From the IMG/VR virus record IMGVR_UViG_2609459790_000004: 30,774 bases of DNA; one strand, 5' to 3'. Below, in pieces: positions 14,781 through 27,343 of this stretch. The DNA comes from a virus (taxonomy: Duplodnaviria > Heunggongvirae > Uroviricota > Caudoviricetes). A program made the position numbers and the translations under genes. Each line of letters starts with the position of its first letter. The first letter of the stretch is position 1. The notes beneath the pieces are model-generated. The model saw nothing but the letters and a program-made list of their open reading frames with translations. It did not search any database and was not told the DNA's origin.

Positions 14781-15274
14781 TGCTTAAACCCGATTTGCTG
14801 CGCCAGATGATAAGCCAGCATGTGCCCTGGCTGCGCGAGAATCCCGATAATCTGGCGGTTTACCTGCGTAAAGGCCGTATGGTCAGCACCGGCCAGCGTG
14901 CTGCTGCGTTTGAGTACCGCTATACGCTGGAAGTGCTGGTGATGGATTACCCTGAATCTCTGGATACTATCAGCGTGCCGGTACTGGCATGGGCGCGTTT
15001 ATATCAGCCTGATCTGTTATTTAACCCGGACAGGCAGCAGAACGGCATAACATTCGAAGCCGATATCCTGAGTAACAGCACGATGGACGTGCTGATCCAG
15101 ATTCAGGCTGATGAAGCGGTGATCGTCACCCGTGAAAATGGAGAGATCGTCACCCGTCACCGTGCTGACCCTGCTCCGGGGCCAGAAATTGGCGCGTGGT
15201 CACTGGTATTTGTTGATGAGGTCAGCGGCGAAACATGGCAGGACAACAAACCGATCCCCTCTTCCAGCAGTTAG
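14780..15274 (+). CDS. R: tail completion protein R (P2 gpR-like)
   Basis: ATG overlapping lysB stop (TAATG); 164 aa, size and position as P2 R. Confidence 0.8.
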   Translation: MLKPDLLRQMISQHVPWLRENPDNLAVYLRKGRMVSTGQRAAAFEYRYTLEVLVMDYPESLDTISVPVLAWARLYQPDLLFNPDRQQNGITFEADILSNSTMDVLIQIQADEAVIVTRENGEIVTRHRADPAPGPEIGAWSLVFVDEVSGETWQDNKPIPSSSS

Positions 15275-15879
15275 ACGACTGGCTAGCCAGTGTGGCCGCG
15301 CAGCTTTCGCCGGGGCACCGTCGCAAGCTGACGCGCGACGTTGCGATCGGGCTGCGTAAGCGCCAGCAAAAGCGTATCGCCAGCCAGAAGAACCCCAGCG
15401 GTGAAAGCTATCAGGCCCGCCGCCGCAAAATCCTGCGAACCCAGGGCGGGATAAAGTTCATATGGAATGATGAGGCCAGGGAGTTACGCAACTGGCGAAC
15501 AACGGGCAGGGGTGAGCACCGCGCAATCACCGGCTATGACGTGGATCGCGGTGCCCTGCGCACGTTCTATAAGCGCGATATCCAGCGCTATATTGAAATC
15601 AATCTCAACCAGTCCAAGCAGAACCGCACAAGAAAGGATCCGATGTTCCGCAAGCTGCGCACCGCACGCTTCCTTAAGGCTTACGGTACGGGCGGTATGG
15701 CCGTGGTTGGCTTTCAGGGACATACTGCCGAAATTGCCAGCGTTCACCAGTACGGTGAAGTCGATAACGTGGTGCCGGGTGCCCGTGCACGCTACCCGGT
15801 GCGTGAACTCCTGGGCATGACCGAAGGGGATTTAGACTGGCTGGCCGATACTGTTGTCGCCTTCATGCAAGAGATTTGA
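15235..15879 (+). CDS. S: tail completion protein S (P2 gpS-like); start uncertain
   Basis: Track ORF 214 aa overlapping R by 40 nt; P2 S is shorter, so a downstream in-frame start (e.g. GTG 15292) is possible. Confidence 0.7.
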   Translation: MAGQQTDPLFQQLDDWLASVAAQLSPGHRRKLTRDVAIGLRKRQQKRIASQKNPSGESYQARRRKILRTQGGIKFIWNDEARELRNWRTTGRGEHRAITGYDVDRGALRTFYKRDIQRYIEINLNQSKQNRTRKDPMFRKLRTARFLKAYGTGGMAVVGFQGHTAEIASVHQYGEVDNVVPGARARYPVRELLGMTEGDLDWLADTVVAFMQEI

Positions 15880-15880
15880 T

Positions 15881-15898
15881 TGTCACCAACCCGCCACA
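15881..15898. promoter_or_regulatory. Ogr/Delta-type late-promoter dyad TGT-N12-ACA (candidate PV)
   Basis: TGTcaccaacccgccACA immediately after S stop, upstream of V. Confidence 0.5.
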
Positions 15899-16036
15899 AT
15901 GGCGCCGCGTTGTTTGCGCGCGCGCGACTCCTGATACTGACTGCATAACCCAAAAGCCGAAACGGTCGTAAAGCCTGCTACCGGGTGGAAGCGACGCCGG
16001 ACAGCGTAACCGGCACCACGGGAAACAGTCAGCACT

Positions 16037-16666
16037 ATGAATTTAAACGAACTATATCGCCTTATCTGCAATCTCGCCCGCATTGGCACCGTGCTGGAAG
16101 TGGACACGGAAAAGTATCTTGCACGCGTCGAAACCGGCGAGAACAAAACCGACTGGATCCGCTGGGCAGTGCCGCGCGCCGGTGAAGCCGTGACGTGGTG
16201 GGCGCCGACAGTGGGCGAACAGGTTTATATTTTGTGCCCCTGCGGTGAGATGGAGACGGCATTCATTGCCGGAAGCCTTTACAGCGAAGACGCACCGCCG
16301 CCAGATGCTGGCGCTACCACCTGCGTGATCCTGCACCCGGATGGCGCCAGTATTTCATATGACCCGGAGGCCAGCGCGCTGGTTGTCAGCGGGGTAAAAA
16401 CGGCAAGCGTCACCGCGTCGGAATCCATTACCGCCACCGTGCCGGTGGTAACGGTCAAGGCAGATACGCGCGTTACCCTGGACACGCCGGAAGTGGTCTG
16501 CACCAACAAGCTGATCACCGCCACGCTGGAAGTGCAAAAGGGCGGGGAAATGAAGGGCAATATTACCCATTCAGGCGGATCGCTTTCGTCTAATGGTGTC
16601 GTTGTCCATTCTCACAAACATAGCGGCGTCCAGTCCGGTGGTAGTAATACAGGTGGCCCGGTATGA
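16037..16666 (+). CDS. V: baseplate spike / central hub protein (P2 gpV-like)
   Basis: 209-aa ORF; size and order match P2 V; stop overlaps W start (ATGA). Confidence 0.85.
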   Translation: MNLNELYRLICNLARIGTVLEVDTEKYLARVETGENKTDWIRWAVPRAGEAVTWWAPTVGEQVYILCPCGEMETAFIAGSLYSEDAPPPDAGATTCVILHPDGASISYDPEASALVVSGVKTASVTASESITATVPVVTVKADTRVTLDTPEVVCTNKLITATLEVQKGGEMKGNITHSGGSLSSNGVVVHSHKHSGVQSGGSNTGGPV

Positions 16667-17025
16667 GTACAGTCCGTTACAGCGGCATGAATGCCAGTTC
16701 AGGCCATGCCATCACCGACAACGAGCATATAGCGCAGTCTATCGGCGATATTCTGTTAACGCCGATCGGTTCCCGTGTAATGCGCCGCGCTTACGGTTCG
16801 CAGCTTTTCAACCTGATAGATCAGCCGGTCGATAACGCCATAACGAAGCTGCGCGTTATGTCTGCCATCTACAGCGCCCTGTATTTATGGGAACCGCGGA
16901 TCTCTCTGACCAGTATCACCCTGAGCGCGCCGGGTGCCGGTCGGCTGGTTGCCACTATCCAGGCCAATCGCACCGACAATCAGACGCCATTTAACGCTGA
17001 TATTACATTGAGGGGCCAGGCATGA
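16663..17025 (+). CDS. W: baseplate wedge protein (P2 gpW-like)
   Basis: 120-aa ORF, translationally coupled to V and J. Confidence 0.85.
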   Translation: MSTVRYSGMNASSGHAITDNEHIAQSIGDILLTPIGSRVMRRAYGSQLFNLIDQPVDNAITKLRVMSAIYSALYLWEPRISLTSITLSAPGAGRLVATIQANRTDNQTPFNADITLRGQA

Positions 17026-17933
17026 GCGGCACGATCGATTTATCGCAGCTACCGCCGCCCGTGGTGGTTGAACCGCTGGACTTCGAAACGCTTTTCGCGC
17101 AGCGCAAGGCGGCATTTATTGCGATGTACCCGGAAGACGAGCAGGAAGAGATCGCCCGCACGCTTGAGCTTGAATCGGAGCCGATCACCATGCTGCTGGA
17201 AGAGAATTGCTATCGCGAATTGCTGTTGCGCCAGCGGGTGAATGAAGCAGCCCGCGCGGTGATGCTGGCTTATTCCACGGATAGCGATCTGGATAATCTG
17301 GCGGTCAATTTCAACGTTGAACGTCTGACCATTCAGGAAGAAGACGACAGCGTTACACCGCCAATTGAAGCCGTGATGGAGTCAGACCCAGATTTACGCA
17401 CGCGTACCCAGCAGGCTTTTGAAGGTCTGAGCGTGGCCGGGCCAACTGCGGCGTATGAATTTTGGGGGCGTTCAGCAGACGGGCGCGTAGCTGATATTTC
17501 GGCGGTGAGTCCTACGCCTGCCTGCGTCACCATTTCGGTGCTGTCGCGCGAAGGTGACGGAACGGCCAGCGATGATCTGCTTTCCGTGGTCGCTGCTGCC
17601 CTGAACGATGAAGAAGTGCGCCCGGTGGCCGACAGGGTAACGGTGCAGTCTGCGGAGATCGTGCCGTATCAGATTGATGCAACGCTTTACATCTATCCGG
17701 GGCCGGAAGCTGAACCCGTCCGGCAGGCATCGGAACAGCAGTTACAGGCGTATATTGCCGCGCAGAATCGCTTAGGGCGCGATATCCGTCTTTCAGCTAT
17801 CTACGCCGCCCTGCACGTCGAAGGCGTCCAGCGCGTGGAACTGGCGCAGCCTGTTGCGGATATTGTGCTGAGTGACTACCAGGCATCGCACTGCACCGAA
17901 TACACCATAACGGTGGGTGGTTACGATGAGTAA
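17022..17933 (+). CDS. J: baseplate protein J (P2 gpJ-like)
   Basis: 303-aa ORF; order and size as P2 J. Confidence 0.9.
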   Translation: MSGTIDLSQLPPPVVVEPLDFETLFAQRKAAFIAMYPEDEQEEIARTLELESEPITMLLEENCYRELLLRQRVNEAARAVMLAYSTDSDLDNLAVNFNVERLTIQEEDDSVTPPIEAVMESDPDLRTRTQQAFEGLSVAGPTAAYEFWGRSADGRVADISAVSPTPACVTISVLSREGDGTASDDLLSVVAAALNDEEVRPVADRVTVQSAEIVPYQIDATLYIYPGPEAEPVRQASEQQLQAYIAAQNRLGRDIRLSAIYAALHVEGVQRVELAQPVADIVLSDYQASHCTEYTITVGGYDE

Positions 17934-18540
17934 TGACCTGTTACCACCCAGCGCCAGCCGAATGGAGCGCGTCGCCGCGCGCGTCTGTGCGTCGTTGGGT
18001 GAAGTGCCCGTGCCGCTGCGCCAGTTGTGGAACCCGTGGACGTGTCGGGCTGATCTGTTGCCCTATCTGGCGTGGGCCTTCTCCGTTGATCGCTGGGATG
18101 AGGCCTGGCCGATAAACACAAAACGAAAGGCGGTGGCCGATGCGTTTTACCTGCATAAGTACAAGGGTACAACGGGCGCCATGCGCCGGGTTGTGGAGCC
18201 GTTCGGCTTCTTCATCCGGGTTAACGAGTGGTGGAACATCGACACCGCACCGGGCACCTTCACGCTGGATATTGGCGTGGAAGACCAGGGCATTAGTGAA
18301 GAAACCTATCAGGAACTTGAACGCCTGATCGCCGATGTGAAGCCGTGCAGCCGTCATATGCTGGGAATGTCTCTTCACCTGCAAACAACCGGCGATCTGT
18401 ATATCGGCGCGGGCAGTTATTCCGGCGATACGCTAACCGTGTACCCGTATTTTCCTGAAACCATAGCCGTGGGCGGTGATGATTACACCGGGGCGGCAAT
18501 CCATTTAATTGACACCGTGGAGATCGCAAGTGGCGACTAA
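17926..18540 (+). CDS. I: baseplate protein I (P2 gpI-like)
   Basis: ATG 17926 (GGTGG RBS) overlapping J stop; track start 17917 is GTG. Confidence 0.85.
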   Translation: MSNDLLPPSASRMERVAARVCASLGEVPVPLRQLWNPWTCRADLLPYLAWAFSVDRWDEAWPINTKRKAVADAFYLHKYKGTTGAMRRVVEPFGFFIRVNEWWNIDTAPGTFTLDIGVEDQGISEETYQELERLIADVKPCSRHMLGMSLHLQTTGDLYIGAGSYSGDTLTVYPYFPETIAVGGDDYTGAAIHLIDTVEIASGD

Positions 18541-20023
18541 ATATTATGCCGTGCTAACCAATGTGGGCGCGGCGAAACTGGCAAATGCCACGGCATTGGG
18601 TGCGCAGGTTGAAATCACCCAGATGGCTGTAGGCGATGGTAACGGCGTGTTGCCGACGCCGAACCCGGCACAAACGGCGCTGGTTCATGAGCTGCGCCGC
18701 AAGCCGCTTAATAGTCTGAGCATTGACCCGAATAACGCCAACCAGATTATTGCCGAGCAGGTGATACCTGAAGACGAGGGCGGGTGGTGGATCCGTGAAA
18801 TCGGTTTATTCGATAAAGACGGCGATATGATTGCCGTAGCCAACTGTGCGGAAACGTATAAGCCGCAGTTACAGGAGGGAAGCGGGCGCGTACAGGTTGT
18901 ACGCATGATCCTGATTGTCAGCAGCACCGCTGCCGTAACGCTGAAAATTGACCCTTCGGTAGTTCTGGCAACCCGACAGTATGTTGATGATCAGATCATC
19001 CAGGTGAAAAGCTATGTTGATCAGAAAATGGCAGCGCATGTAGCTGCGGCTGATCCGCATAAACAATACGCACCAAAAGAAAGTCCCGCTCTTACTGGCA
19101 GGCCGACTGCGCCAACGGCGGAAGGCAAAGATAGTTCTACTCAAATTGCAAATACAGCTTTCGTTCAGGCTGCTATTGCTGCTTTGGTTGGCTCTTCGCC
19201 TGAAGCGCTGGATACGCTGAATGAACTTGCTGCGGCTTTGGGTAATGATCCTAACTTTGCTACCACCGTAACAAATTCACTCGCTGGAAAGATGGATAAA
19301 TCGGCAAATGGTTCAGACATAGAAAACGTTTCTGTTTTTCTACAAAACCTTGGTTTGGGAGATGCGAGCGGATACGTTGGTAGGCTGCTAAAAATACAGG
19401 TATTCACTGCCAGCGGGACAGTGACAAAAACGCCAGGCGCAAAAAAATGGCGAATTAAATGTCTCGGGGCGGGGGCCGGTAGTTCAGCTGCACCGGCAAC
19501 GGGTAGTAACGAGGTTTCCGTGAGTAACGGGGGCGGCGCAGGGGCATATGCTGAGGGCATTTATGACGTATCGTCAATAACAACGGCGTCAGTCGTCATC
19601 GGTTCCGGCGGTGCAGGAGGAACGGCGGGTTCAATATACGGCGCGGACGGCGGAACTAGCTCAGTTGGTTCGTTTATTTCATCGCCCGGTGGGAAAGCTG
19701 GATTACCCGCCGGACCGGCAACCCCACCATTTCAGCCCGTGGCCAATAGTAACAGCGATAGCTCGACTGGGTGGAATATTGTCGGCTCATCTGGAGCAGG
19801 GGCAGAACCAGCCGTAGCTGTTGCAAATAGCTATGCCGTTGGCTCGCGTGGTTCAAATAGTATATTTGGGGTAGGCGGAGCAACTCCTGCAATGAATAGC
19901 CCGGCAAATACCGGTGGTGGCTATGGTTCTGGAGCATCAGGCTGCTCGAATGGCCCATCTCAACCAACTAAATCAGGCGCAGCGGGACGCCCGGGAATCG
20001 TAATCATTGAGGAGCTGGCATAA
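18530..20023 (+). CDS. H: tail fibre protein (P2 gpH-like) with constant N-terminal part and invertible, glycine-rich variable C-terminal part (current orientation)
   Basis: N-terminus ..YYAVLTNVGAAKLANATALG..MAVGDGNG resembles P2 H; preferred start GTG 18530 (GGAG RBS 7 nt upstream), track start TTG 18509; the C-terminal ~220 aa lie inside the invertible segment. Confidence 0.85.
   Translation: MATKYYAVLTNVGAAKLANATALGAQVEITQMAVGDGNGVLPTPNPAQTALVHELRRKPLNSLSIDPNNANQIIAEQVIPEDEGGWWIREIGLFDKDGDMIAVANCAETYKPQLQEGSGRVQVVRMILIVSSTAAVTLKIDPSVVLATRQYVDDQIIQVKSYVDQKMAAHVAAADPHKQYAPKESPALTGRPTAPTAEGKDSSTQIANTAFVQAAIAALVGSSPEALDTLNELAAALGNDPNFATTVTNSLAGKMDKSANGSDIENVSVFLQNLGLGDASGYVGRLLKIQVFTASGTVTKTPGAKKWRIKCLGAGAGSSAAPATGSNEVSVSNGGGAGAYAEGIYDVSSITTASVVIGSGGAGGTAGSIYGADGGTSSVGSFISSPGGKAGLPAGPATPPFQPVANSNSDSSTGWNIVGSSGAGAEPAVAVANSYAVGSRGSNSIFGVGGATPAMNSPANTGGGYGSGASGCSNGPSQPTKSGAAGRPGIVIIEELA
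19338..19363. promoter_or_regulatory. hix/gix/cix-like 26-bp recombination site (left), inside gene H
   Basis: TTCTACAAAACC TT GGTTTGGGAGAT; 20-bp inverted repeat with the right site (19/20 identical); resembles the hixL consensus recalled from memory. Confidence 0.6.
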
Positions 20024-20220
20024 TGAGTAATTATGCGATAGTTAAAAATGGCGTCGTTGAAAATGTTGTTGTATGGGACGGGATTGGTAATATTTTCGAC
20101 AATTATATAGTGGTAAATATTGAAAATATAAATGCAGGAATAGGCTGGTTGTATGACGGAGAGGCTTTTACCCCTCCGTCTGAGCTTACGCCTACACCAC
20201 CGGGAAATCAGGCCAGTTAA
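20023..20220 (+). CDS. small hypothetical protein (65 aa) downstream of H in the expressed orientation; possible tail-fibre chaperone
   Basis: ATG overlapping H stop (TAATG); AT-rich; function inferred only from position. Confidence 0.45.
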   Translation: MSNYAIVKNGVVENVVVWDGIGNIFDNYIVVNIENINAGIGWLYDGEAFTPPSELTPTPPGNQAS

Positions 20221-20599
20221 TATCTGGCGCAGTGCTGGTATCAATTACCTGCACTGCGTCGATATAGTCCAGCACTGCGTTTAACCGCGTAGTTTCTGCA
20301 TCAGTCAGCATACGCCCTGCCAGCAATTTCATTTGCAGCACACTAATTGACTGCATTGCTGAATCTATCAGCGACTGTTTTTTCTGCTCGCCTCTCGCAA
20401 CTTCTTCTTCACGCGTCAAACCGATGGGCTCTTGCAATACCGGGTGACCATCATTTCCAGCGGAAATTATTTTTCCATTGGCCTGACCGTCAAACAGCCG
20501 GTGATATTCATCTGAGCTAATTTCTATAGCGTTATCTGGAATGTGGTTATTTAATCCGTCAATATAAAATGCACCATCTAAAAAATAATATTTCATCAT
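20192..20599 (-). CDS. tail fibre assembly protein (Tfa/gpG/Mu U-like), alternative-orientation copy
   Basis: N-terminus MMKYYFLDGAFY and C-terminus ..DAVQVIDTSTAPDINWPDFPVV match the conserved tail-fibre-assembly family ends; ATG overlaps the stop of the alternative fibre segment. Confidence 0.8.
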   Translation of the reverse strand: MMKYYFLDGAFYIDGLNNHIPDNAIEISSDEYHRLFDGQANGKIISAGNDGHPVLQEPIGLTREEEVARGEQKKQSLIDSAMQSISVLQMKLLAGRMLTDAETTRLNAVLDYIDAVQVIDTSTAPDINWPDFPVV

Positions 20600-20982
20600 T
20601 TACCCCACGCGAATACGATGCATCCTGCATTTTCTACTGCTGAAATTTGTGATCCGTTATCTACCCTGCATATTGCCTGAACGCCTGTTTTAGTGAGCGT
20701 ACTCAGTTGTATTGCCCATGTATTGGAAATTCCTGCACCCCAGGCATACGGATTACGCTCTATCACAACAGCGCCCAGGCCGAAAACATCAAAACTGGCA
20801 GGAAAAACAACGTCCGCAGCACCGCCAGAATTTGTATTCCCCAGTACCCACATGATTTTAAAACCCCCAGGGAATCGCGCCACACCGGGCATGTTTAGTG
20901 TTGATGCAAAACTGGACATATCAGGAATCTGATTTGCGCCGGTGCCGACGTTGCGGCGCGACGCTGTACCCAGATCTCCCAA
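20596..20982 (-). CDS. alternative tail-fibre C-terminal segment (silent in this orientation; fuses to H constant part after inversion)
   Basis: No ATG of its own (track start is TTG within the right hix site); after inversion at the 2-bp cores the H frame reads ..QNLGLGD-LGTASRRNVG.. continuously into this ORF. Confidence 0.7.
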   Translation of the reverse strand: MGDLGTASRRNVGTGANQIPDMSSFASTLNMPGVARFPGGFKIMWVLGNTNSGGAADVVFPASFDVFGLGAVVIERNPYAWGAGISNTWAIQLSTLTKTGVQAICRVDNGSQISAVENAGCIVFAWGK

Positions 20983-20999
20983 ACCAACGTTTTTGAAAA
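20974..20999. promoter_or_regulatory. hix/gix/cix-like 26-bp recombination site (right)
   Basis: ATCTCCCAAACC AA CGTTTTTGAAAA; inverted repeat of the left site; strong match to the hix consensus as recalled. Confidence 0.6.
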
Positions 21000-21053
21000 T
21001 GCATAATTATCAGTCAAATGGCATGATTTCTCATTTTAACGGAATGAAAAACC

Positions 21054-21635
21054 ATGCTTATTGGATATGTACGCGTATCAACAAATGACCAGAACACGGC
21101 TTTGCAACGTGATGCGCTGGAGCGGTCAGGATGTGAGCTTATTTTTGAAGATAAAATGAGCGGTAAAACAGCAGAAAGACCGGGGCTTAAAAAATTACTA
21201 AAGCGCCTTTCTCCAGAAGATACGCTTGTTGTCTGGAAGCTGGATCGTCTTGGGCGGAGTATGCGGAACTTGGTCATTCTGGTGGAGGAACTAAAGCAAC
21301 GTTCCGTGAACTTCCGCAGCCTGACTGACAGTATTGATACCTCAACACCAATGGGGCGTTTCTTTTTTCATGTTATGGGAGCACTGGCAGAGATGGAGAG
21401 AGAATTGATTGTCGAGCGTACGCGTGCAGGACTGGTGGCCGCTCGCGCGCAGGGAAGGATCGGCGGTAGACGTCCAAAACTAACACCAGAACAATGGGCG
21501 CAGGCGGGTAGGTTAATAGCGGCAGGGGAATCGCGCCGGAGGGTTGCCATAATTTATGATGTTGGGATATCTACGCTTTACAAAAAATTCCCAGCGACCA
21601 GAGATAAGAATTCCGGCACGCATGGCCGGTTATAA
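21054..21635 (+). CDS. serine recombinase, Hin/Gin/Cin/Pin-family DNA invertase
   Basis: 193-aa ORF; GYVRVSTNDQ (catalytic Ser region), TLVVWKLDRLGRS, MGRFFFHVMGALAEMERELIVERT and C-terminal HTH are near-identical in pattern to Hin/Gin. Confidence 0.95.
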   Translation: MLIGYVRVSTNDQNTALQRDALERSGCELIFEDKMSGKTAERPGLKKLLKRLSPEDTLVVWKLDRLGRSMRNLVILVEELKQRSVNFRSLTDSIDTSTPMGRFFFHVMGALAEMERELIVERTRAGLVAARAQGRIGGRRPKLTPEQWAQAGRLIAAGESRRRVAIIYDVGISTLYKKFPATRDKNSGTHGRL

Positions 21636-21679
21636 CCGTGCTGGCCGTGTGTATCGAGTACGGTCACTTTTAACGGTGC
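21634..21679 (+). repeat. 46-bp terminator-like hairpin element, copy 2 (paralog of 14183-14228)
   Basis: Overlaps invertase stop codon; stem 21642-21650 / 21658-21666 followed by T4; three stem differences from copy 1 all preserve pairing. Confidence 0.5.
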
Positions 21680-21741
21680 TGTAGCACGGTCAGTTATGGT
21701 GGTGTATTACGGAAGACGAAGCAGGCAATGGCCCGCTTTTC

Positions 21742-22191
21742 TTATATCGAAAGGTTGGTTTTCACCAGAGAGAAGAGATCGTCGGTGGTGGTTTCAGCCA
21801 GCTTTTCCCGTATGTCCTCGCTTACCCGTTTCAGGTTGAGCGTGAAATCAATTTTCTTTGCCTTCCCGTCCTTAAAAAACTCCGTCCGGTTTTGCGTGAT
21901 CTGCTCAATTACATACATGCCGTAGATCCTGCCCGTGCCTTCTATCAGGGGCCACGGGCGCCCGGAAAAAGCCATAGTTTCCAGCATGACAAGCGACACA
22001 TCACCGCCGCTTATTTCGGGGTACAGCGTGCCGCTGAGTACGAACGGTTCTTCATCTGCGCCGATGAACTGATAGCGCGGGGATTTCCCCACGCGATCGT
22101 TTTTGACGTGCCGCCAGGAGTTGGTTTTATTCGCACTCTGGTAAGGTGTGGTTTGCAGTGAAAAGGGGAACATCCCCAGAATCATCATCAT
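21742..22191 (-). CDS. U: tail protein U (P2 gpU-like)
   Basis: 149-aa ORF immediately downstream of the tape-measure gene on the minus strand; position and size as P2 U. Confidence 0.8.
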   Translation of the reverse strand: MMMILGMFPFSLQTTPYQSANKTNSWRHVKNDRVGKSPRYQFIGADEEPFVLSGTLYPEISGGDVSLVMLETMAFSGRPWPLIEGTGRIYGMYVIEQITQNRTEFFKDGKAKKIDFTLNLKRVSEDIREKLAETTTDDLFSLVKTNLSI

Positions 22192-22200
22192 GATATTGCC

Positions 22201-25146
22201 TTAGACGTGATCGGTCAGTTGGGAGCGCTTGCGCCGGTCGGCCTGTTGCTTCGCTAACGCAAGTTCTTCGCGCACGCGCCTGATAATGGTTTCTTCATCC
22301 AGTTTCTGGCCGCTAAAGTCGAAGTTAAGGTTATATACATCGCCACCCGGAGCAGGCATCAGCGCAGCGACGGAAGCCGCAGACGGAGACGCAGAAACAG
22401 GCATCCGTGCGGCGGGCTTCTCAACCTGCCAAGGCGTAACGGAAGCGATCAGCGATCCGGCCTGCTGCGTCACCCAATCGGTAAGGGATGGTAGCTGGCG
22501 CTGCGCCTGCTTAAGCGGTTCCGAATATCCGCCACGGATCGGGATATAGGGCTGCTTATTCTTGAAGACAATTTCGCCGGGGCCGTCTTTCTTCTCCGTG
22601 GTATTGGTGGCGATCTTGTCCAGGCTGTTGCTCATCTTCGGCACGATGTTGGCCGGGCCTTTGAGCGAGTTAATTAAGCTTTCCTGCTTTTTCTGCTGGT
22701 CAATGGCCTGCTGTTGCTTCTGGTTGGTTTTCTTCTGCTGATCGTCTTTCGGCGACCAGTTCCAACCCTTTTTAACCATTTTCTTTTGCTGCGGATCCCA
22801 CTCCCAGACAACAGGGTCTTTGTGCATACTTTCCGCAGCTTGCTGCGCTGCTTTTGTTGCGTCGGGGATGGCGCCGAGTTTCTCAAGTATCCATCCAATC
22901 CCGTTAGCGACGGCTTGAATAGGTAGCGTCAGCGCGCTGATTGCGGCCCCTACAACCTTGCCGAACGTTTCCCCGGCACTGGTGCAGGATGCCAGCGCTT
23001 CACTGGAAAACTGGATCGGTTCCAGCAGTTTGGTAAACCATTCCCAGACCCCACTGATCGCGTTGCCGATACTGTCAAAAATCGGGGCCAGTGGTGCAAA
23101 TACGGCGTTAAATGCCTGCGTGATTGGTTGAAGGCCAGTCATCAGGCCGGTAAAGAAGCCGCTGAAAAACGCCTGTATGGGTTGCCAGAATTTAATGACG
23201 GCCACTGCTGCCGCAGCAAAGAGCGCAATCAGCCCCCAGACGGGCGCAGAAATACCAGCCAGTAGAGTAATAAGCGGGCCGAATACCATGCGACCGGCGC
23301 TTAATAATGCCTGCATAGGCGAGCCAGCAAGCCACTGGAACGCACCACCCAGGCGCATTACTCCGCCAGTCAGCCGCGCTATTCCTCCTTCCCCGGCCAG
23401 CGTGGTGAAGCTGAGGCGAACAAGTGCCATCGGGCCCAGCACTGCGCCGATGGACAGCATCAGGCCACCCACGACAACCAGCAACGCGCCTATGGCTGCG
23501 GTGACTTTCATGATTGAACCAACCAGCGCCGGGTTTGCCTCAACCCAACGCCGGACGCTGCCAACCACCTTACTGACGGTAAGCATGATATCCATCAGCG
23601 GTTCGCGGAGCGTTTCCCCTGCTGAACTGAATGCGTTAACCGCGCCGGTTTTGGTCAGTTGCCACTGAGCAGAAAGGGAGTCTTTATTGATATCGGATTC
23701 CCGATTCATGGAACCTTTAGCGGCAGCACCCTGCGTCAGTTCGATCTGGCGCCGAAGTTCGGGCAGGTTGTTCGCAAGTTTCTGTGCATCATCCCCGAAC
23801 TCTTTACCGAAAATCTGGGTAAGGTTGGCTACCTGCTTATCTGGTGCAAGTTTTTTGGACGCTTCCAGCACTGAAATGATCGTGCCCATCGCGTCCACTG
23901 ACATGCTTTTCTGGACTTTCTCAGCATTGACGCCGATCTCATCCAGAGCACCCAAAAATTTATCGCTTTGTACTGTGGCGATCGACAGTTCACGCACCAT
24001 TGCATTGGTGGCGCTGGCTGCAACTTCGGCAGGTGATCCAAGCGTCAGAAAGGTGGAGCCCAGCGCGGCGGCTTGCTTGTAATCCAGTTGGCTGGCAAGC
24101 CCGCCAACGCGCTGGAGCACGTCGATAATATCGGAGCCTTTCGACTTCGCGTTATCGTCCAGGTAGTTTATGGCGTCGCCCAACTGTTCAATATTCTGGG
24201 TAGGGATTTTATACAGCCCGGCAATCTTACCGAGACTTTCAGAAAGCTGATCGGCGGGCAGTTCAAAGGCTACCGAAGCCTTTGCCGCCATGCTGGCAAA
24301 AGCCAGCAGATCGGCTTTTTGCTTTTGCCACGGATCATTGCTGTTTGCGACGCCCATACGCGCGCCACCTTCGACCAGTGCGGCATAGTCAACAGCACCG
24401 TTTGCCATTGGCAGCTTTTCGCTGGCATCCATGATCGCCCGCTGCATTTCTTCATATTGCGGGGTGCGGTTGCCGCTGTCGTCACGCAAGCCGTTTACCT
24501 GTTTGGCTACGCCCTTCATTGCGTCTTCAAGGCTGCTGTAGGATTTAACCGCAGCGGCGACAGGTGCTAGGGTTGCCGCCCCTACTGCGGCGGTTTTCAT
24601 CCCCCCGCTCATCATCTTTTCGCCGGTTTCTTTGGCGCGGCTGTAACGGGCCTGCGCCTGGTTAACAGCGTCAAGCCGTCGCTGCTGTTCGGCAAGCTGG
24701 CGGTTGTATTGCGCGGTGCGCTGGTTGATCTGTTCCGTCGCCCGGCTGGCGCTGCTGATCGCAATGCCTTCGCTGTAGAAGCTGGCCCGCAACTGGTTAA
24801 GCTGTGTCTGCTCGCCTTTCTGCTGCTGGGTTAACTGGCGAATGGCTGCACGTTGCTGATTGAGGGCGGCAACCTGTTCGGCGCTGCGCTGGCGTAACGG
24901 GCCATAGGCCGCCGCCATTTGCCGGGCCTGTTCTTTCGCCTGGGCCAGTTGTTCGGTGGTTTTTTTATTGGCTGCGGTGAGGCGGTCAAAGCTGGTTGCC
25001 TGACGCTCAAGCCCTTTAATGCTGGTTTTAGTCTGGTTGATTTGAGACGCCAACGCGGCGGCACTCTGGCGCGCCGCGTTGACAGGGCGGGACATATTAT
25101 TCAGGGCGCTGAATGCCACCCTGATATTTAAATTGCGGTCTGCCAT
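22201..25146 (-). CDS. T: tail tape measure protein (P2 gpT-like)
   Basis: 981-aa ORF with long Ala/Gln-rich coiled-coil and hydrophobic segments typical of tape-measure proteins. Confidence 0.9.
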   Translation of the reverse strand: MADRNLNIRVAFSALNNMSRPVNAARQSAAALASQINQTKTSIKGLERQATSFDRLTAANKKTTEQLAQAKEQARQMAAAYGPLRQRSAEQVAALNQQRAAIRQLTQQQKGEQTQLNQLRASFYSEGIAISSASRATEQINQRTAQYNRQLAEQQRRLDAVNQAQARYSRAKETGEKMMSGGMKTAAVGAATLAPVAAAVKSYSSLEDAMKGVAKQVNGLRDDSGNRTPQYEEMQRAIMDASEKLPMANGAVDYAALVEGGARMGVANSNDPWQKQKADLLAFASMAAKASVAFELPADQLSESLGKIAGLYKIPTQNIEQLGDAINYLDDNAKSKGSDIIDVLQRVGGLASQLDYKQAAALGSTFLTLGSPAEVAASATNAMVRELSIATVQSDKFLGALDEIGVNAEKVQKSMSVDAMGTIISVLEASKKLAPDKQVANLTQIFGKEFGDDAQKLANNLPELRRQIELTQGAAAKGSMNRESDINKDSLSAQWQLTKTGAVNAFSSAGETLREPLMDIMLTVSKVVGSVRRWVEANPALVGSIMKVTAAIGALLVVVGGLMLSIGAVLGPMALVRLSFTTLAGEGGIARLTGGVMRLGGAFQWLAGSPMQALLSAGRMVFGPLITLLAGISAPVWGLIALFAAAAVAVIKFWQPIQAFFSGFFTGLMTGLQPITQAFNAVFAPLAPIFDSIGNAISGVWEWFTKLLEPIQFSSEALASCTSAGETFGKVVGAAISALTLPIQAVANGIGWILEKLGAIPDATKAAQQAAESMHKDPVVWEWDPQQKKMVKKGWNWSPKDDQQKKTNQKQQQAIDQQKKQESLINSLKGPANIVPKMSNSLDKIATNTTEKKDGPGEIVFKNKQPYIPIRGGYSEPLKQAQRQLPSLTDWVTQQAGSLIASVTPWQVEKPAARMPVSASPSAASVAALMPAPGGDVYNLNFDFSGQKLDEETIIRRVREELALAKQQADRRKRSQLTDHV

Positions 25147-25607
25147 TTAGTGATCTCCACCACTGCGCGCAGCCGCCTGATCACGCCATAACAGTATTTC
25201 CTGTACCGTCATGGCGTCCATCTCTACCGGCCGCCAGTGGAATATGACGGCGATATCTGCCATCAGGTCTTCTATGCGTTCGCAGGGGCATCGGATGATT
25301 CGTTGCCCGTATCCGTCGCGGTCAGATCCGAAGAGGGTTGCAAAAAATCAACCACCGCGTTGGCTAGCTGGCAAAAATCCCAGGTATCCATACGGGCAAT
25401 CTCATCGGCGGTTAGTGCCGGAGCGGTAACGCGGGGCAGCAGAATAACCAGCGCGTCATAGTTGGAAGTCAGCACGTCATAGGCTTTTAAGCCGCGCAGT
25501 GATCCAGCCTGTTTAAGCACGGAAGTGATCGCCACTTCGGTGATTTTGGTCTTACCGCGCGTAATAGGGGCGGTAAGAATAACGGTGTTTTCTTTGGTCT
25601 TGCTCAT
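25147..25607 (-). CDS. E+E' -1 programmed-frameshift product (tail assembly chaperone long form)
   Basis: Slippery site T TTT TTG at 25347..25341 (minus strand); hand translation of the -1 frame gives a 64-codon open extension ending at TAA 25149-25147 that overlaps the T start codon, as in P2 E/E'. Confidence 0.6.
25272..25607 (-). CDS. E: tail assembly chaperone E (P2 gpE-like)
   Basis: 111-aa ORF between FII and T; contains slippery heptamer TTTTTTG near its 3' end. Confidence 0.75.
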   Translation of the reverse strand: MSKTKENTVILTAPITRGKTKITEVAITSVLKQAGSLRGLKAYDVLTSNYDALVILLPRVTAPALTADEIARMDTWDFCQLANAVVDFLQPSSDLTATDTGNESSDAPANA

Positions 25608-25621
25608 GGTGCCGGGTTTCC

Positions 25622-26137
25622 TTATAGGCCGATGTTAGCGCGGTGTTTTTCCAGCACATCCACACCGGCAACTTTGTAGATCATGTTGAGCACATCAACT
25701 TCGATAATCTCTTCGCCGTTGATGGTCAGCTTGTAATAGGTGTTTTTCAGGGTGTACTTATGCGAAGTGTCATCCCCGACTTTTGCCGAACCGGGATCCA
25801 GTTCAGTGAAGCGGCCACGCGTCTGGATTTCGCACGGTACAGCGTCGCCGGTTGCGTCGTCCTGATAGGAGCCAGCAAAACGTGTTTGCATCCCGTCCGC
25901 AGTGGTAACGCCCCATTTTTTCAGCAATCCGGCATCCAGACCGCCAAGCGTGATATCCATATCCAGGGCGCCAGCGTCGAAGCCAAGATCCACCGCAACC
26001 GAACCCGGCATACCACCCGCCTGGTAGTCTTCGGTTTTTTTTGTGAGTTTGGCGGGGGGGATTTCCGGCACCATGCCGAAGTAGTTATCCCCGTCAAAGA
26101 ACATATTGAAATATTTGAGTTTCTTAGGCAGTGCCAT
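25622..26137 (-). CDS. FII: tail tube protein (P2 gpFII-like)
   Basis: 171-aa ORF following the sheath gene; order and size as P2 FII. Confidence 0.9.
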   Translation of the reverse strand: MALPKKLKYFNMFFDGDNYFGMVPEIPPAKLTKKTEDYQAGGMPGSVAVDLGFDAGALDMDITLGGLDAGLLKKWGVTTADGMQTRFAGSYQDDATGDAVPCEIQTRGRFTELDPGSAKVGDDTSHKYTLKNTYYKLTINGEEIIEVDVLNMIYKVAGVDVLEKHRANIGL

Positions 26138-26149
26138 AAGCGCCCCCGG

Positions 26150-27343
26150 TTAGTTATTCACTGCGCTGGAAAACGTAGCGAAATATTCGTCGGTGAACTC
26201 CTGTACCAGGCTGAGATTTTCCAGCGGTGGAACAGGGGTGTAGTTGTACTTAATGGTCAGTTGACCATTGCGCAGGGTTTCCGAGGTATTCGGTTCCGGG
26301 TCATACCAGCAGCTGGCGCCCAGCAGCTTGCCAGCCGTCACATATGAGGTCAGCTTCTTATTGATGCCGTCCACAATGTCCTTAACCAGCGACGGGGTAA
26401 GCGGTTTATCAACATAGGCGAAATGGGCTTCGGCGACGGTATCCGCAACGATCTGCGCGGTTCGGGTATAGCTTTCGAAGATATACGTTTCCGCGTCGCA
26501 GGTACGCGATCCCCAGATGCGGTAGCCGTCCTGCTTGATCAGCGTGGTAACGCCTGCTGCGTTCAGTTCGTCGGCGTCGGTATCGGTGCCCTGCAACGTG
26601 AAATAGATATCCCGATCCATCCCCAGCACGTTATTAACGGGCACGTTGGAAATGGTTTTATGCCAGCCCTGCGTTGCGTCGATTTTGGCTCGCATCCCAA
26701 CAGCATGGGCACCCACGGGCACGGTGGCATTAGCCCCGGCGTTGGTGTCGTAGCAGATGAAATTAGGCCAGATAACCATCATTTCACGCTGGGAGAATTG
26801 CTCGCGGTATTCCTTCACTTCGGCGATTGTGTTGCAACCGTTCGCTGCCACGTAAGCAAACGCGCGCAGCTTTTCGGCAATGACGCCGAGTTGTGCGGCT
26901 ACCGCTTCCGTATCAAGCCCTGGAACAGCCAGTACACGCGGGCGCACACCTACGCGCATTTCGGCAGACAGCAGCGCGTACATGCCGGTAAAGCGCCCGT
27001 TTGCATCGGTGCCGCCAATAACCAGTTGATCCTGGGTCTGTGCGGTGCCGCCTTCTGGCGGTTCGATATTTGCAGCATCAGCAACGCGGATCACAATGGT
27101 TTGCGGGCTGGTCTGGTCTGAAATCGCTTTCAGGGTGGTAAACAGGGTGCCGGTTTTACCTGCCTTGCCCAGCATGTTAGCCACGCGGGTAATCAGTACA
27201 GGGGTATCCAGCGGGAACGCTGTTTCGTCCGCATCATCAGCGGTGCAGACAACGCCGATCACCGCCGAATCAATGTCGGTGATCATCGTGCTAAGGTCGG
27301 TGGTTTCCGTGACGGTTACACCGTGATGGTAGTTAGTGGCCAT
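26150..27343 (-). CDS. FI: tail sheath protein (P2 gpFI-like)
   Basis: 397-aa ORF; N-terminus MATNYHHGVTVTE resembles P2 FI (..YHHGV..); GAGG RBS. Confidence 0.9.
   Translation of the reverse strand: MATNYHHGVTVTETTDLSTMITDIDSAVIGVVCTADDADETAFPLDTPVLITRVANMLGKAGKTGTLFTTLKAISDQTSPQTIVIRVADAANIEPPEGGTAQTQDQLVIGGTDANGRFTGMYALLSAEMRVGVRPRVLAVPGLDTEAVAAQLGVIAEKLRAFAYVAANGCNTIAEVKEYREQFSQREMMVIWPNFICYDTNAGANATVPVGAHAVGMRAKIDATQGWHKTISNVPVNNVLGMDRDIYFTLQGTDTDADELNAAGVTTLIKQDGYRIWGSRTCDAETYIFESYTRTAQIVADTVAEAHFAYVDKPLTPSLVKDIVDGINKKLTSYVTAGKLLGASCWYDPEPNTSETLRNGQLTIKYNYTPVPPLENLSLVQEFTDEYFATFSSAVNN

What the first reader, a model, noticed from the sequence alone, without database searches (positions are those of the whole stretch)
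19352..20220. Unusual glycine-rich variable fibre tip with a 65-aa companion ORF
The currently expressed variable part of H is dominated by Gly/Ser/Ala repeats (e.g. GAGAGSSAAPATGS, GSGGAGGTAGSIYGADGGTSS, GGGYGSGASG). It is followed by an AT-rich 65-aa ORF rather than a typical ~135-175-aa Tfa chaperone. The alternative tip uses a canonical Tfa. The AT-rich composition of 20023-20600 suggests the tip and chaperone modules were acquired from a different source than the fibre shaft.
Basis: seen in the sequence. Interest (0 to 1): 0.45.

Follow-up and report, generated by a model that had tools for sequence, protein, structure and literature searches.

The report
Glycine-rich fibre tip with half-size chaperone
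The glycine-rich tail-fibre tip is an ordinary member of a known phage adhesin family, and the 65-residue gene after it is the fibre-binding half of a standard tail-fibre assembly chaperone, one of a large family that is still unnamed.

Summary
A P2-like E. coli prophage has a 504-aa fibre gene H. Its variable end (21% Gly; Gly+Ser+Ala 50%) is followed by a translationally coupled 65-aa ORF, inside a 1.65-kb invertible segment.

It is therefore an N-domain-only Tfa: the fibre-binding module without the oligomerisation module. Its chaperone function is inferred, not shown. The cassette is also found in P1-like, Mu-like and Klebsiella elements.

The parts
18509..20023 (+). Tail fibre gene H in its current orientation (504 aa; the true start may be 18530). 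It comprises the P2-type N-terminal collar/shaft plus the variable Gly-rich tip.
   Evidence: PF12571 at residues 9-157 (E 3e-65) and PF21722 at residues 302-501. The public gene call is 497 aa.
19344..19363 (.). Left inversion crossover site. It encodes ..QNLGLGD.. within H.
   Evidence: 20-nt inverted repeat, 95% complementary to 20974-20993. Homology to cassettes in other elements begins here.
19364..20020 (+). Variable fibre tip: TNF-like beta-sandwich plus glycine-rich domain (Gly_rich_2, Pam3 gp24-like adhesin).
20009..20014 (+). Shine-Dalgarno sequence GAGGAG for the 65-aa ORF, formed by the conserved Glu-Glu codons at the end of H.
   Evidence: Read directly from the sequence.
20023..20220 (+). 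65-aa ORF: an N-domain-only tail-fibre assembly (Tfa) protein, cognate to the Gly-rich tip.
20192..20599 (-). Canonical 135-aa Tfa of the alternative cassette. Its 3' end overlaps the 3' end of the 65-aa ORF by 29 nt.
   Evidence: PF02413 at E 3e-22 and phrog_188 at E 6e-43. Its N-terminal half shows no similarity to the 65-aa family.
20596..20973 (-). Alternative fibre tip with a weak gp53-like C-terminal match. It joins H in frame after inversion.
   Evidence: PF21882 at E 1e-4, 23.2 bits, just below the 24.9 cut-off. phrog_2557 and phrog_1396 match. The frame across the repeat was read from the sequence.
20974..20993 (.). Right inversion crossover site.
   Evidence: Inverted repeat partner of 19344-19363.
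21054..21635 (+). Serine DNA invertase (Gin/Cin/Pin type).
   Evidence: PF00239 at E 7e-50 plus PF02796, and phrog_125 'DNA invertase' at E 4e-92.

Best explanation
The segment 19344-20993 is a Gin/Cin-type invertible host-range switch in a P2-like E. coli prophage. In the present orientation, H ends in a TNF-like plus glycine-rich adhesin domain of the Pam3 gp24 / PF21722 kind. The 65-aa ORF is translated from the same transcript and is coupled to the H stop codon. [quoted passage not shown] It lacks the conserved C-terminal helical domain that trimerises those chaperones.

Inferred mechanism: one copy binds each nascent H subunit at the TNF-like/Gly-rich junction. There it shields the flexible Gly-rich loops until the tip folds. 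Trimer registration comes from the long P2-type shaft of H itself rather than from a chaperone helical bundle.

Shown here: homology of both partners, the domain architecture, conserved adjacency, purifying selection, and mobility of the cassette. Inferred: physical binding, chaperone activity, and whether the protein is released or stays on the virion.
For: Tip:
- PF21722 scores above its gathering threshold.
- The family profile aligns end to end with Pam3 gp24 at E 7e-8.

Small ORF:
- The profile finds 1,937 clusters at E <= 1e-3.
- 72 of 149 top sequences end within 10 aa of the domain, and 48 carry 55 or more extra residues.
- 9 of 10 tested 129-136-aa members are PF02413 Caudo_TAP at E 1e-18 to 1e-29, in register.
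- The long-form profile hits the TfaMu C-domain (5yvq_B) at E 1e-13.
- hhalign of short against long forms gives 99.9% probability, E 6e-33, over residues 1-67.

Partnership:
- 24 of 27 viral loci found through the small ORF have it directly after a Gly-rich fibre C-terminus.
- 80 of 95 loci found through the fibre alone have an N-domain ORF starting at or overlapping the fibre stop. By 60%-identity tip cluster, that is 34 of 47 (20 long, 13 short, 1 intermediate).
- Short forms in Serratia, Cupriavidus, Paraburkholderia, Dyella, Pantoea, Caballeronia and Acetobacter genomes have no invertase and no Tfa C-domain within ~3.5 kb.
- dN/dS is 0.20 against the E. coli 60-aa allele.

Mechanistic precedent: in the Pam3 gp24-gp25 cryo-EM complex, the chaperone's N-terminal beta-sandwich (residues 1-55) binds the junction of the TNF-like and Gly-rich domains, and the C-terminal helices only trimerise. 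The fibre's N-terminal helical domain trimerises without the chaperone (PMC9608196).
Against: - No experiment or complex model links the 65-aa protein to the tip.
- The tip model is poor in the Gly-rich loops (pLDDT below 50 for residues 130-218). The profile hit to gp24 carries a high compositional bias.
- In the accepted model the C-terminal domain drives fibre oligomerisation, so a protein without it may be insufficient.
- 13 of 47 tip clusters have no detectable N-domain ORF.
- Loci were fetched through short peptide patterns and are redundant.
- Some short representatives from metagenomes could be fragments.
Confidence: 0.7

Rival explanations
1. The 65-aa ORF is functional but is not a folding chaperone. 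It could stay on the mature fibre as a cap or accessory receptor-binding subunit. Alternatively, it could act as a competitor ('microprotein') that blocks binding of full-length Tfa proteins from co-resident prophages.
For: TfaMu is reported to remain bound to the fibre tip and possibly to bind LPS, and Alteromonas phage chaperones are proposed to act as transient caps (PMC10579305). The protein keeps only the fibre-binding module. The same tip tolerates alleles of the small ORF that differ by ~25% in protein sequence.
Against: In Pam3 the chaperone is absent from virions, and its N-domain binds laterally rather than at the receptor-binding loops. Nothing here distinguishes retention from release.
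Confidence: 0.17
2. The ORF is a decaying remnant of a full-length Tfa. It lost its C-terminal half when two cassettes were joined tail to tail in the invertible segment, and the tip folds without it or with a Tfa supplied in trans.
For: Homology to other elements stops at 20178, exactly at the end of the N-domain, and the tail of the ORF overlaps the convergent Tfa. Nearest-neighbour relations show that short and long forms interconvert often. P0012 (67 aa) looks like a recent truncation of a P0137-like 134-aa protein.
Against: dN/dS is 0.20 with dS 0.66. The start codon, Shine-Dalgarno sequence and stop-start overlap are conserved. Short forms are the majority state in 13 of the 47 fibre-tip clusters, and the genome examples checked, from seven genera, have no invertible segment. 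About half of the 149 top sequences are short.
Confidence: 0.1
3. The ORF is a chance open frame in AT-rich DNA and is not expressed.
For: It is short, has no Pfam or NCBIfam match, and is annotated only as 'hypothetical protein'.
Against: There are 131 representative clusters at E <= 1e-10. Its position is conserved across Proteobacteria and environmental phages. It is under purifying selection. The model shows a folded beta domain.
Confidence: 0.01

Closest known systems
Cyanophage Pam3 tail fibre gp24 with chaperone gp25 (PDB 7YFW/7YPX; PMC9608196)
   Different: gp25 is 162 aa and has a four-helix C-terminal trimerisation domain, which is absent here. gp24 is a 280-aa 'simplified' fibre with a short helical stalk, whereas H has a ~280-aa P2-type shaft. 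Sequence identity is only ~23% for both partners. Here the module sits in an invertible segment.
Tfa / Caudo_TAP family (PF02413): Mu gpU (TfaMu, PDB 5YVQ), P2 gpG, lambda Tfa
   Same: Long relatives of the 65-aa ORF are bona fide members (9 of 10 tested), and their C-domain matches TfaMu at E 1e-13. They share the gene position after the fibre gene, and the two-module logic of a variable fibre-binding N-domain plus a conserved C-domain.
   Different: The 65-aa ORF has no C-domain and does not score against PF02413. Its N-domain is unrelated in sequence to that of the window's own 135-aa Tfa.
Invertible tail-fibre segments of Mu (G/Gin), P1 (C/Cin) and e14 (P/Pin)
   Same: There is a serine invertase, ~20-nt inverted crossover sites inside the fibre gene, and two convergent tip-plus-chaperone cassettes. 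The same cassette occurs in P1-like plasmids and a Mu-like prophage.
   Different: One of the two cassettes carries a half-size chaperone. The host element is P2-like.
gp38 adhesins of T2/T6/S16-type phages, the ALK/LTK glycine-rich domain, and Bxb1 gp33

Membership tests
Pfam PF21722 Gly_rich_2 / Pam3 gp24-like fibre tip | Score at or above the curated gathering threshold of the family model | tested here: met
   30.5 bits against a cut-off of 24.3, residues 302-501 against profile positions 3-224 of 226. All 120 listed close homologues carry PF21722.
Pfam PF21722 Gly_rich_2 / Pam3 gp24-like fibre tip | Sequence homology to the structurally solved member over the whole TNF-like plus Gly-rich unit | tested here: met
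   Profile A2 against 7yfw_a/7ypx_A gives E 7e-8, profile positions 28-234 against chain residues 69-274. Compositional bias is high.
Pfam PF21722 Gly_rich_2 / Pam3 gp24-like fibre tip | Fold: TNF-like beta-sandwich whose strands extend into a lattice of glycine-rich motifs | tested here: inconclusive
   [not shown]
Pfam PF21722 Gly_rich_2 / Pam3 gp24-like fibre tip | Trimeric receptor-binding tip | not testable with these tools
   Needs biochemistry or a multimer prediction.
Tfa / Caudo_TAP (PF02413) | Family model score above threshold | tested here: not met
   The 65-aa ORF has no Pfam hit at E <= 0.1. None of 60 short-form members hits PF02413.
Tfa / Caudo_TAP (PF02413) | N-terminal fibre-binding domain homologous to that of accepted members | tested here: met
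   hhalign of short forms against the N-terminus of long forms gives 99.9% probability and E 6e-33. 9 of 10 long forms are PF02413.
Tfa / Caudo_TAP (PF02413) | Conserved C-terminal helical (oligomerisation) domain ending in a W-P..P motif | tested here: not met
   The ORF stops 10-15 residues after the N-domain. The only C-domain HMM match in 15001-24000 is on the opposite strand, in the alternative cassette's Tfa.
Tfa / Caudo_TAP (PF02413) | Encoded immediately downstream of, and co-oriented with, the fibre gene it serves | tested here: met
   TAATG stop-start overlap in the window. The same arrangement holds in 80 of 95 fibre-selected loci.
Tfa / Caudo_TAP (PF02413) | Required for folding and trimerisation of the fibre | not testable with these tools
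   Needs co-expression or deletion experiments.
Pam3 gp25-type fibre chaperone | N-terminal beta-sandwich of ~55 residues | tested here: met
   [not shown]
Pam3 gp25-type fibre chaperone | C-terminal four-helix trimerisation domain | tested here: not met
   Absent: the ORF is 65 aa and has no helix in the model.
Din-family (Gin/Cin/Pin) invertible fibre segment | Serine invertase next to a segment bounded by short inverted repeats inside the fibre gene, with in-frame alternative C-termini | tested here: met
   Invertase domains, a 20-nt inverted repeat, and an in-frame ..QN(L/V)GLGD.. junction on both arms read from the sequence. Inversion itself was not observed.

The most novel reading that the evidence does not exclude
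Stand-alone ~60-aa N-domain proteins are fully competent, monomeric 'clamp' chaperones (or retained caps) for glycine-rich-domain fibres. If so, the conserved C-terminal oligomerisation domain of Tfa proteins is dispensable whenever the fibre has its own trimerising shaft. A family of roughly a thousand unannotated small phage proteins would then gain a function, and they would have to be co-transferred when such tips are used to retarget phages or tailocins.
Probability: 0.45. Interest if true: 0.55.

Novelty: new variant of a known kind. Interest (0 to 1): 0.4.

Why it matters
The fibre tip needs no new explanation. The small ORF does carry three consequences.

1. It gives a testable function to a large family of ~60-aa 'hypothetical' phage proteins. 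These have no Pfam or NCBIfam model and sit in a PHROG of unknown function.
2. It is a natural experiment on the two-domain Tfa model. Nature repeatedly keeps the fibre-binding half and drops the oligomerisation half.
3. It matters for host-range engineering. Transplanting a Gly_rich_2 tip, which is common in E. coli and Klebsiella prophages, P1-like phage-plasmids and Klebsiella 'pam3-like' adhesins, probably requires moving this easily overlooked gene with it.

Tried and rejected
- Direct sequence searches of the small ORF or its profiles against PDB gave only chance-level hits. The link to Pam3 gp25 rests on fold and on the partner, not on sequence.
- Pfam, NCBIfam and PDB searches with the single tip sequence were weak or empty apart from PF21722.
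- The diverse tip alignment A2 was too divergent to seed locus searches. The narrower A3 worked.
- The third protein search with a profile returned only homologues 84-95% identical to the query. The tip structure therefore had to be predicted from a shallow alignment and is poor in the loops.
- I considered that the missing C-domain might be encoded downstream in another frame (a split gene or a frameshift, as in lambda G/GT). The C-domain HMM finds nothing on the + strand of the window.
- I considered that short forms are a by-product of packing two cassettes into an invertible segment. This is rejected because most short forms in bacterial genomes have no invertase nearby.
- I considered that the window's own 135-aa Tfa shares the N-domain. 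It does not.
- The promoter and terminator scan of 19900-21200 found no more sites than shuffled controls.
- Literature searches for PF21722, for 'Gly_rich_2', and for truncated or single-domain fibre chaperones returned nothing relevant.

Full report
**Context.** The window is a P2-like prophage. The exact 65-aa protein is on record in E. coli 2-474-04_S1_C1 (GCA_000704565.1) with the same neighbours: GpR, S, V, W, J, I, the fibre, the 65-aa ORF, a convergent Caudo_TAP gene, a short ORF, a resolvase-type invertase, then GpU, tape measure, GpE, tube and sheath on the other strand.

**Anatomy of the locus.**
- H occupies 18509-20023. Pfam gives the P2 collar/fibre N-terminal domain at residues 9-157 and Gly_rich_2 (PF21722) at residues 302-501.
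- A 20-nt inverted repeat (19344-19363 and 20974-20993, 95% complementary) brackets 1.65 kb.
- Read from the sequence, both arms encode ..QN(L/V)GLGD.. in frame. Inversion would therefore replace the Gly-rich end of H with the 128-aa ORF on the other strand.
- The segment holds two convergent cassettes. One is the Gly-rich tip plus the 65-aa ORF. The other is a tip with a sub-threshold gp53-like match plus a canonical 135-aa Tfa. A serine invertase sits just outside.

- The variable part is 21% Gly and 50% Gly+Ser+Ala, against 27% in the shaft.
- The 65-aa ORF starts at the H stop (TAATG), 8 nt after a GAGGAG formed by the conserved Glu-Glu codons of the fibre C-terminus.
- Low GC is real but local. 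The values are 0.40 for the small ORF, 0.44 for the Tfa and 0.56 for the tip. GC3 is 0.33, 0.43 and 0.43, against 0.49 for the constant part of H.

**What the tip is.**
- It scores above the curated threshold of PF21722 and matches phrog_863 at E 8e-61.
- Close copies (84-95% identical) occur in E. coli, Klebsiella, Citrobacter, Enterobacter and Shigella proteins. All carry PF21722 and have different N-terminal lengths.
- A profile of diverse tips aligns end to end with the solved fibre of cyanophage Pam3 (7yfw_a/7ypx_A, E 7e-8), though with a large compositional bias.
- An AlphaFold model from a shallow alignment is confident only in the beta core (mean pLDDT 56; loops 130-218 below 50).
- The Pam3 paper describes this architecture as a conserved glycine-rich stem with hypervariable distal loops that are proposed to bind the receptor (PMC9608196). 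A Klebsiella phage fibre of this kind carries host-range mutations in the Gly-rich domain (PMC12671077). 'Pam3 fibre-like' adhesins are already a recognised class in Klebsiella phages.
- The tip is therefore ordinary.

**What the 65-aa ORF is.**
- Pfam and NCBIfam give nothing. PHROGs gives a family of unknown function, phrog_14370 (E 2e-9).
- A profile of the first relatives finds 1,937 representative clusters at E <= 1e-3 and 131 at E <= 1e-10 among 1.84 billion representatives.
- Lengths are bimodal. Of 149 top sequences, 72 end within 10 residues of the domain and about 48 carry 55 or more further residues.
- Nine of ten 129-136-aa members tested are Caudo_TAP (PF02413) at E 1e-18 to 1e-29, with protein and profile positions in register.
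- The long-form profile matches the C-terminal domain of Mu gpU (TfaMu, 5yvq_B) at E 1e-13.
- hhalign aligns the short-form family with residues 1-67 of the long-form family at 99.9% probability.
- Both window proteins therefore map onto the two chains of one solved complex. In that complex the chaperone's N-terminal beta-sandwich (residues 1-55) grips the junction of the TNF-like and Gly-rich domains, while the C-terminal helices only trimerise the chaperone. The authors state that TfaMu has the same modular logic.
- The 65-aa ORF is the first module without the second. It shows no similarity to the N-terminal half of the window's own 135-aa Tfa, which fits an N-domain that is specific to its fibre.

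**Is it a true companion of the tip?**
- Starting from the small ORF, 27 viral loci were found. In 24 of them the ORF begins 0-10 nt after a Gly-rich fibre C-terminus ending ..G.V.I.EYA/K.
- Starting from the fibre tip alone, 103 loci were found (23 from one-genome-per-species bacterial contigs, 80 viral). Of these, 95 are evaluable, and 80 have an N-domain ORF starting at or overlapping the fibre stop.
- Collapsing redundancy to 47 tip clusters at 60% identity leaves 34 with such an ORF: 20 long, 13 short and 1 intermediate.
- Short forms occur in Serratia, Cupriavidus, Paraburkholderia, Dyella, Pantoea, Caballeronia and Acetobacter genomes. None of these has an invertase or a Tfa C-domain within ~3.5 kb, and varied genes follow them.
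- Short and long forms are interleaved as nearest neighbours, so the C-domain has been lost or gained repeatedly.
- Against the E. coli 60-aa allele, the window ORF has dN/dS 0.20.
- The ORF is therefore a real gene under selection, and the half-size state is a stable architecture rather than an accident of this locus.

**Mosaicism.**
- The first ~480-550 nt of H match Salmonella phages SEN4/SEN5 (92.7%) and Enterobacter phage phiT5282H (83.6%).
- From the crossover site to 20178, the DNA is ~93% identical to cassettes in three settings:
  - E. coli P1-like plasmids, after a 751-aa fibre;
  - a Mu-like prophage next to dusA;
  - Klebsiella phage Kp4865-2, with a 573-aa H.
- Only 16 of 5,426 complete E. 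coli genomes have a match.
- Homology ends at 20178, the end of the N-domain. The last 14 codons differ and overlap the convergent Tfa.
- Within the shared part, the tip is nearly identical (dS 0.06) but the small ORF is much more diverged (dS 0.66). A recombination joint therefore lies at the fibre/chaperone boundary, and the same tip tolerates chaperone alleles about 25% different in protein sequence.

**Mechanism.**
- Shown: the homologies, the architecture, the adjacency, the selection and the mobility.
- Inferred: the protein binds each H subunit laterally through the conserved beta1-beta2 hairpin and protects the glycine-rich loops during folding. The long P2-type shaft supplies trimerisation, as the Pam3 authors observed for their fibre's helical stalk.
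- Whether the protein is released or retained, as TfaMu is, is open.
- A hint that the short form suffices comes from the 46.7-kb Kp4865-2 record. It has the 60-aa ORF, only a truncated C-domain remnant of the convergent Tfa beside an IS-like ORF, and no other Tfa-like sequence. That record is flagged unverified.

**Verdict.** The tip is a known family. The small ORF is a new variant of a known kind, a single-domain Tfa, and I found no description of it in the searchable literature. Interest is moderate.

Noticed in passing
window 19364-20178 compared with L001 5013-5827: The Gly-rich tip is almost identical between the window and the P1-like plasmid cassette (dS 0.06). The adjoining small ORF is far more diverged (dS 0.66, ~75% protein identity). 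This implies a recombination breakpoint exactly at the fibre/chaperone junction.
   Followed up: partly
L063 4678-5099: The N-domain (a 68-aa ORF) and a Tfa C-domain lie on the same strand but in separate reading frames about 10 nt apart. This could be a split Tfa, a frameshift, or a sequencing error.
   Followed up: no
L006 / L053 (IMGVR_UViG_2571042420_000006), - strand 4167-4556 of L006: A sibling P2-like element with the same 504-aa H has a convergent Tfa that is itself a long form of the same N-domain family. Both cassettes there may carry Gly-rich tips.
   Followed up: no
L012, L015, L016, L018-L021 (marine and freshwater viral contigs); L020 3598-3873: Intermediate 91-93-aa forms end in a short conserved helix motif (..AKSKL.ALGL(S/T).EE...AFG(I/L)). 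In L020 the preceding 91-aa ORF has an unrelated N-terminus but the same C-terminal motif. This suggests a second, interchangeable C-terminal module.
   Followed up: no
L133 3858-4415 / OK490418.1 about 36716-37270: In Klebsiella phage Kp4865-2 the alternative cassette is truncated. Only the C-terminal part of the convergent Tfa remains, next to an ORF that resembles (from memory, not tested) an IS1-type transposase fragment. The 60-aa ORF is the only intact Tfa-related gene in the record.
   Followed up: partly
window 21742-27343, - strand: GpU, tape measure, GpE, tube and sheath genes are on the opposite strand to V-W-J-I-H. As I recall, P2 itself has both tail operons in the same orientation. 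The invertase lies at the boundary between the two blocks.
   Followed up: no
P0050 and P0094; phrog_863: Some close homologues of the Gly-rich tip are named 'carbohydrate kinase' in public records. The PHROG that matches the tip is labelled 'tail fiber assembly'. Both labels look like annotation errors.
   Followed up: no
window 18509-18530: The start of H is uncertain. The ORF rule gives TTG at 18509 (504 aa), while the public gene call for the identical locus gives 497 aa, which puts the start 21 nt downstream.
   Followed up: no
[not shown]
   Followed up: no
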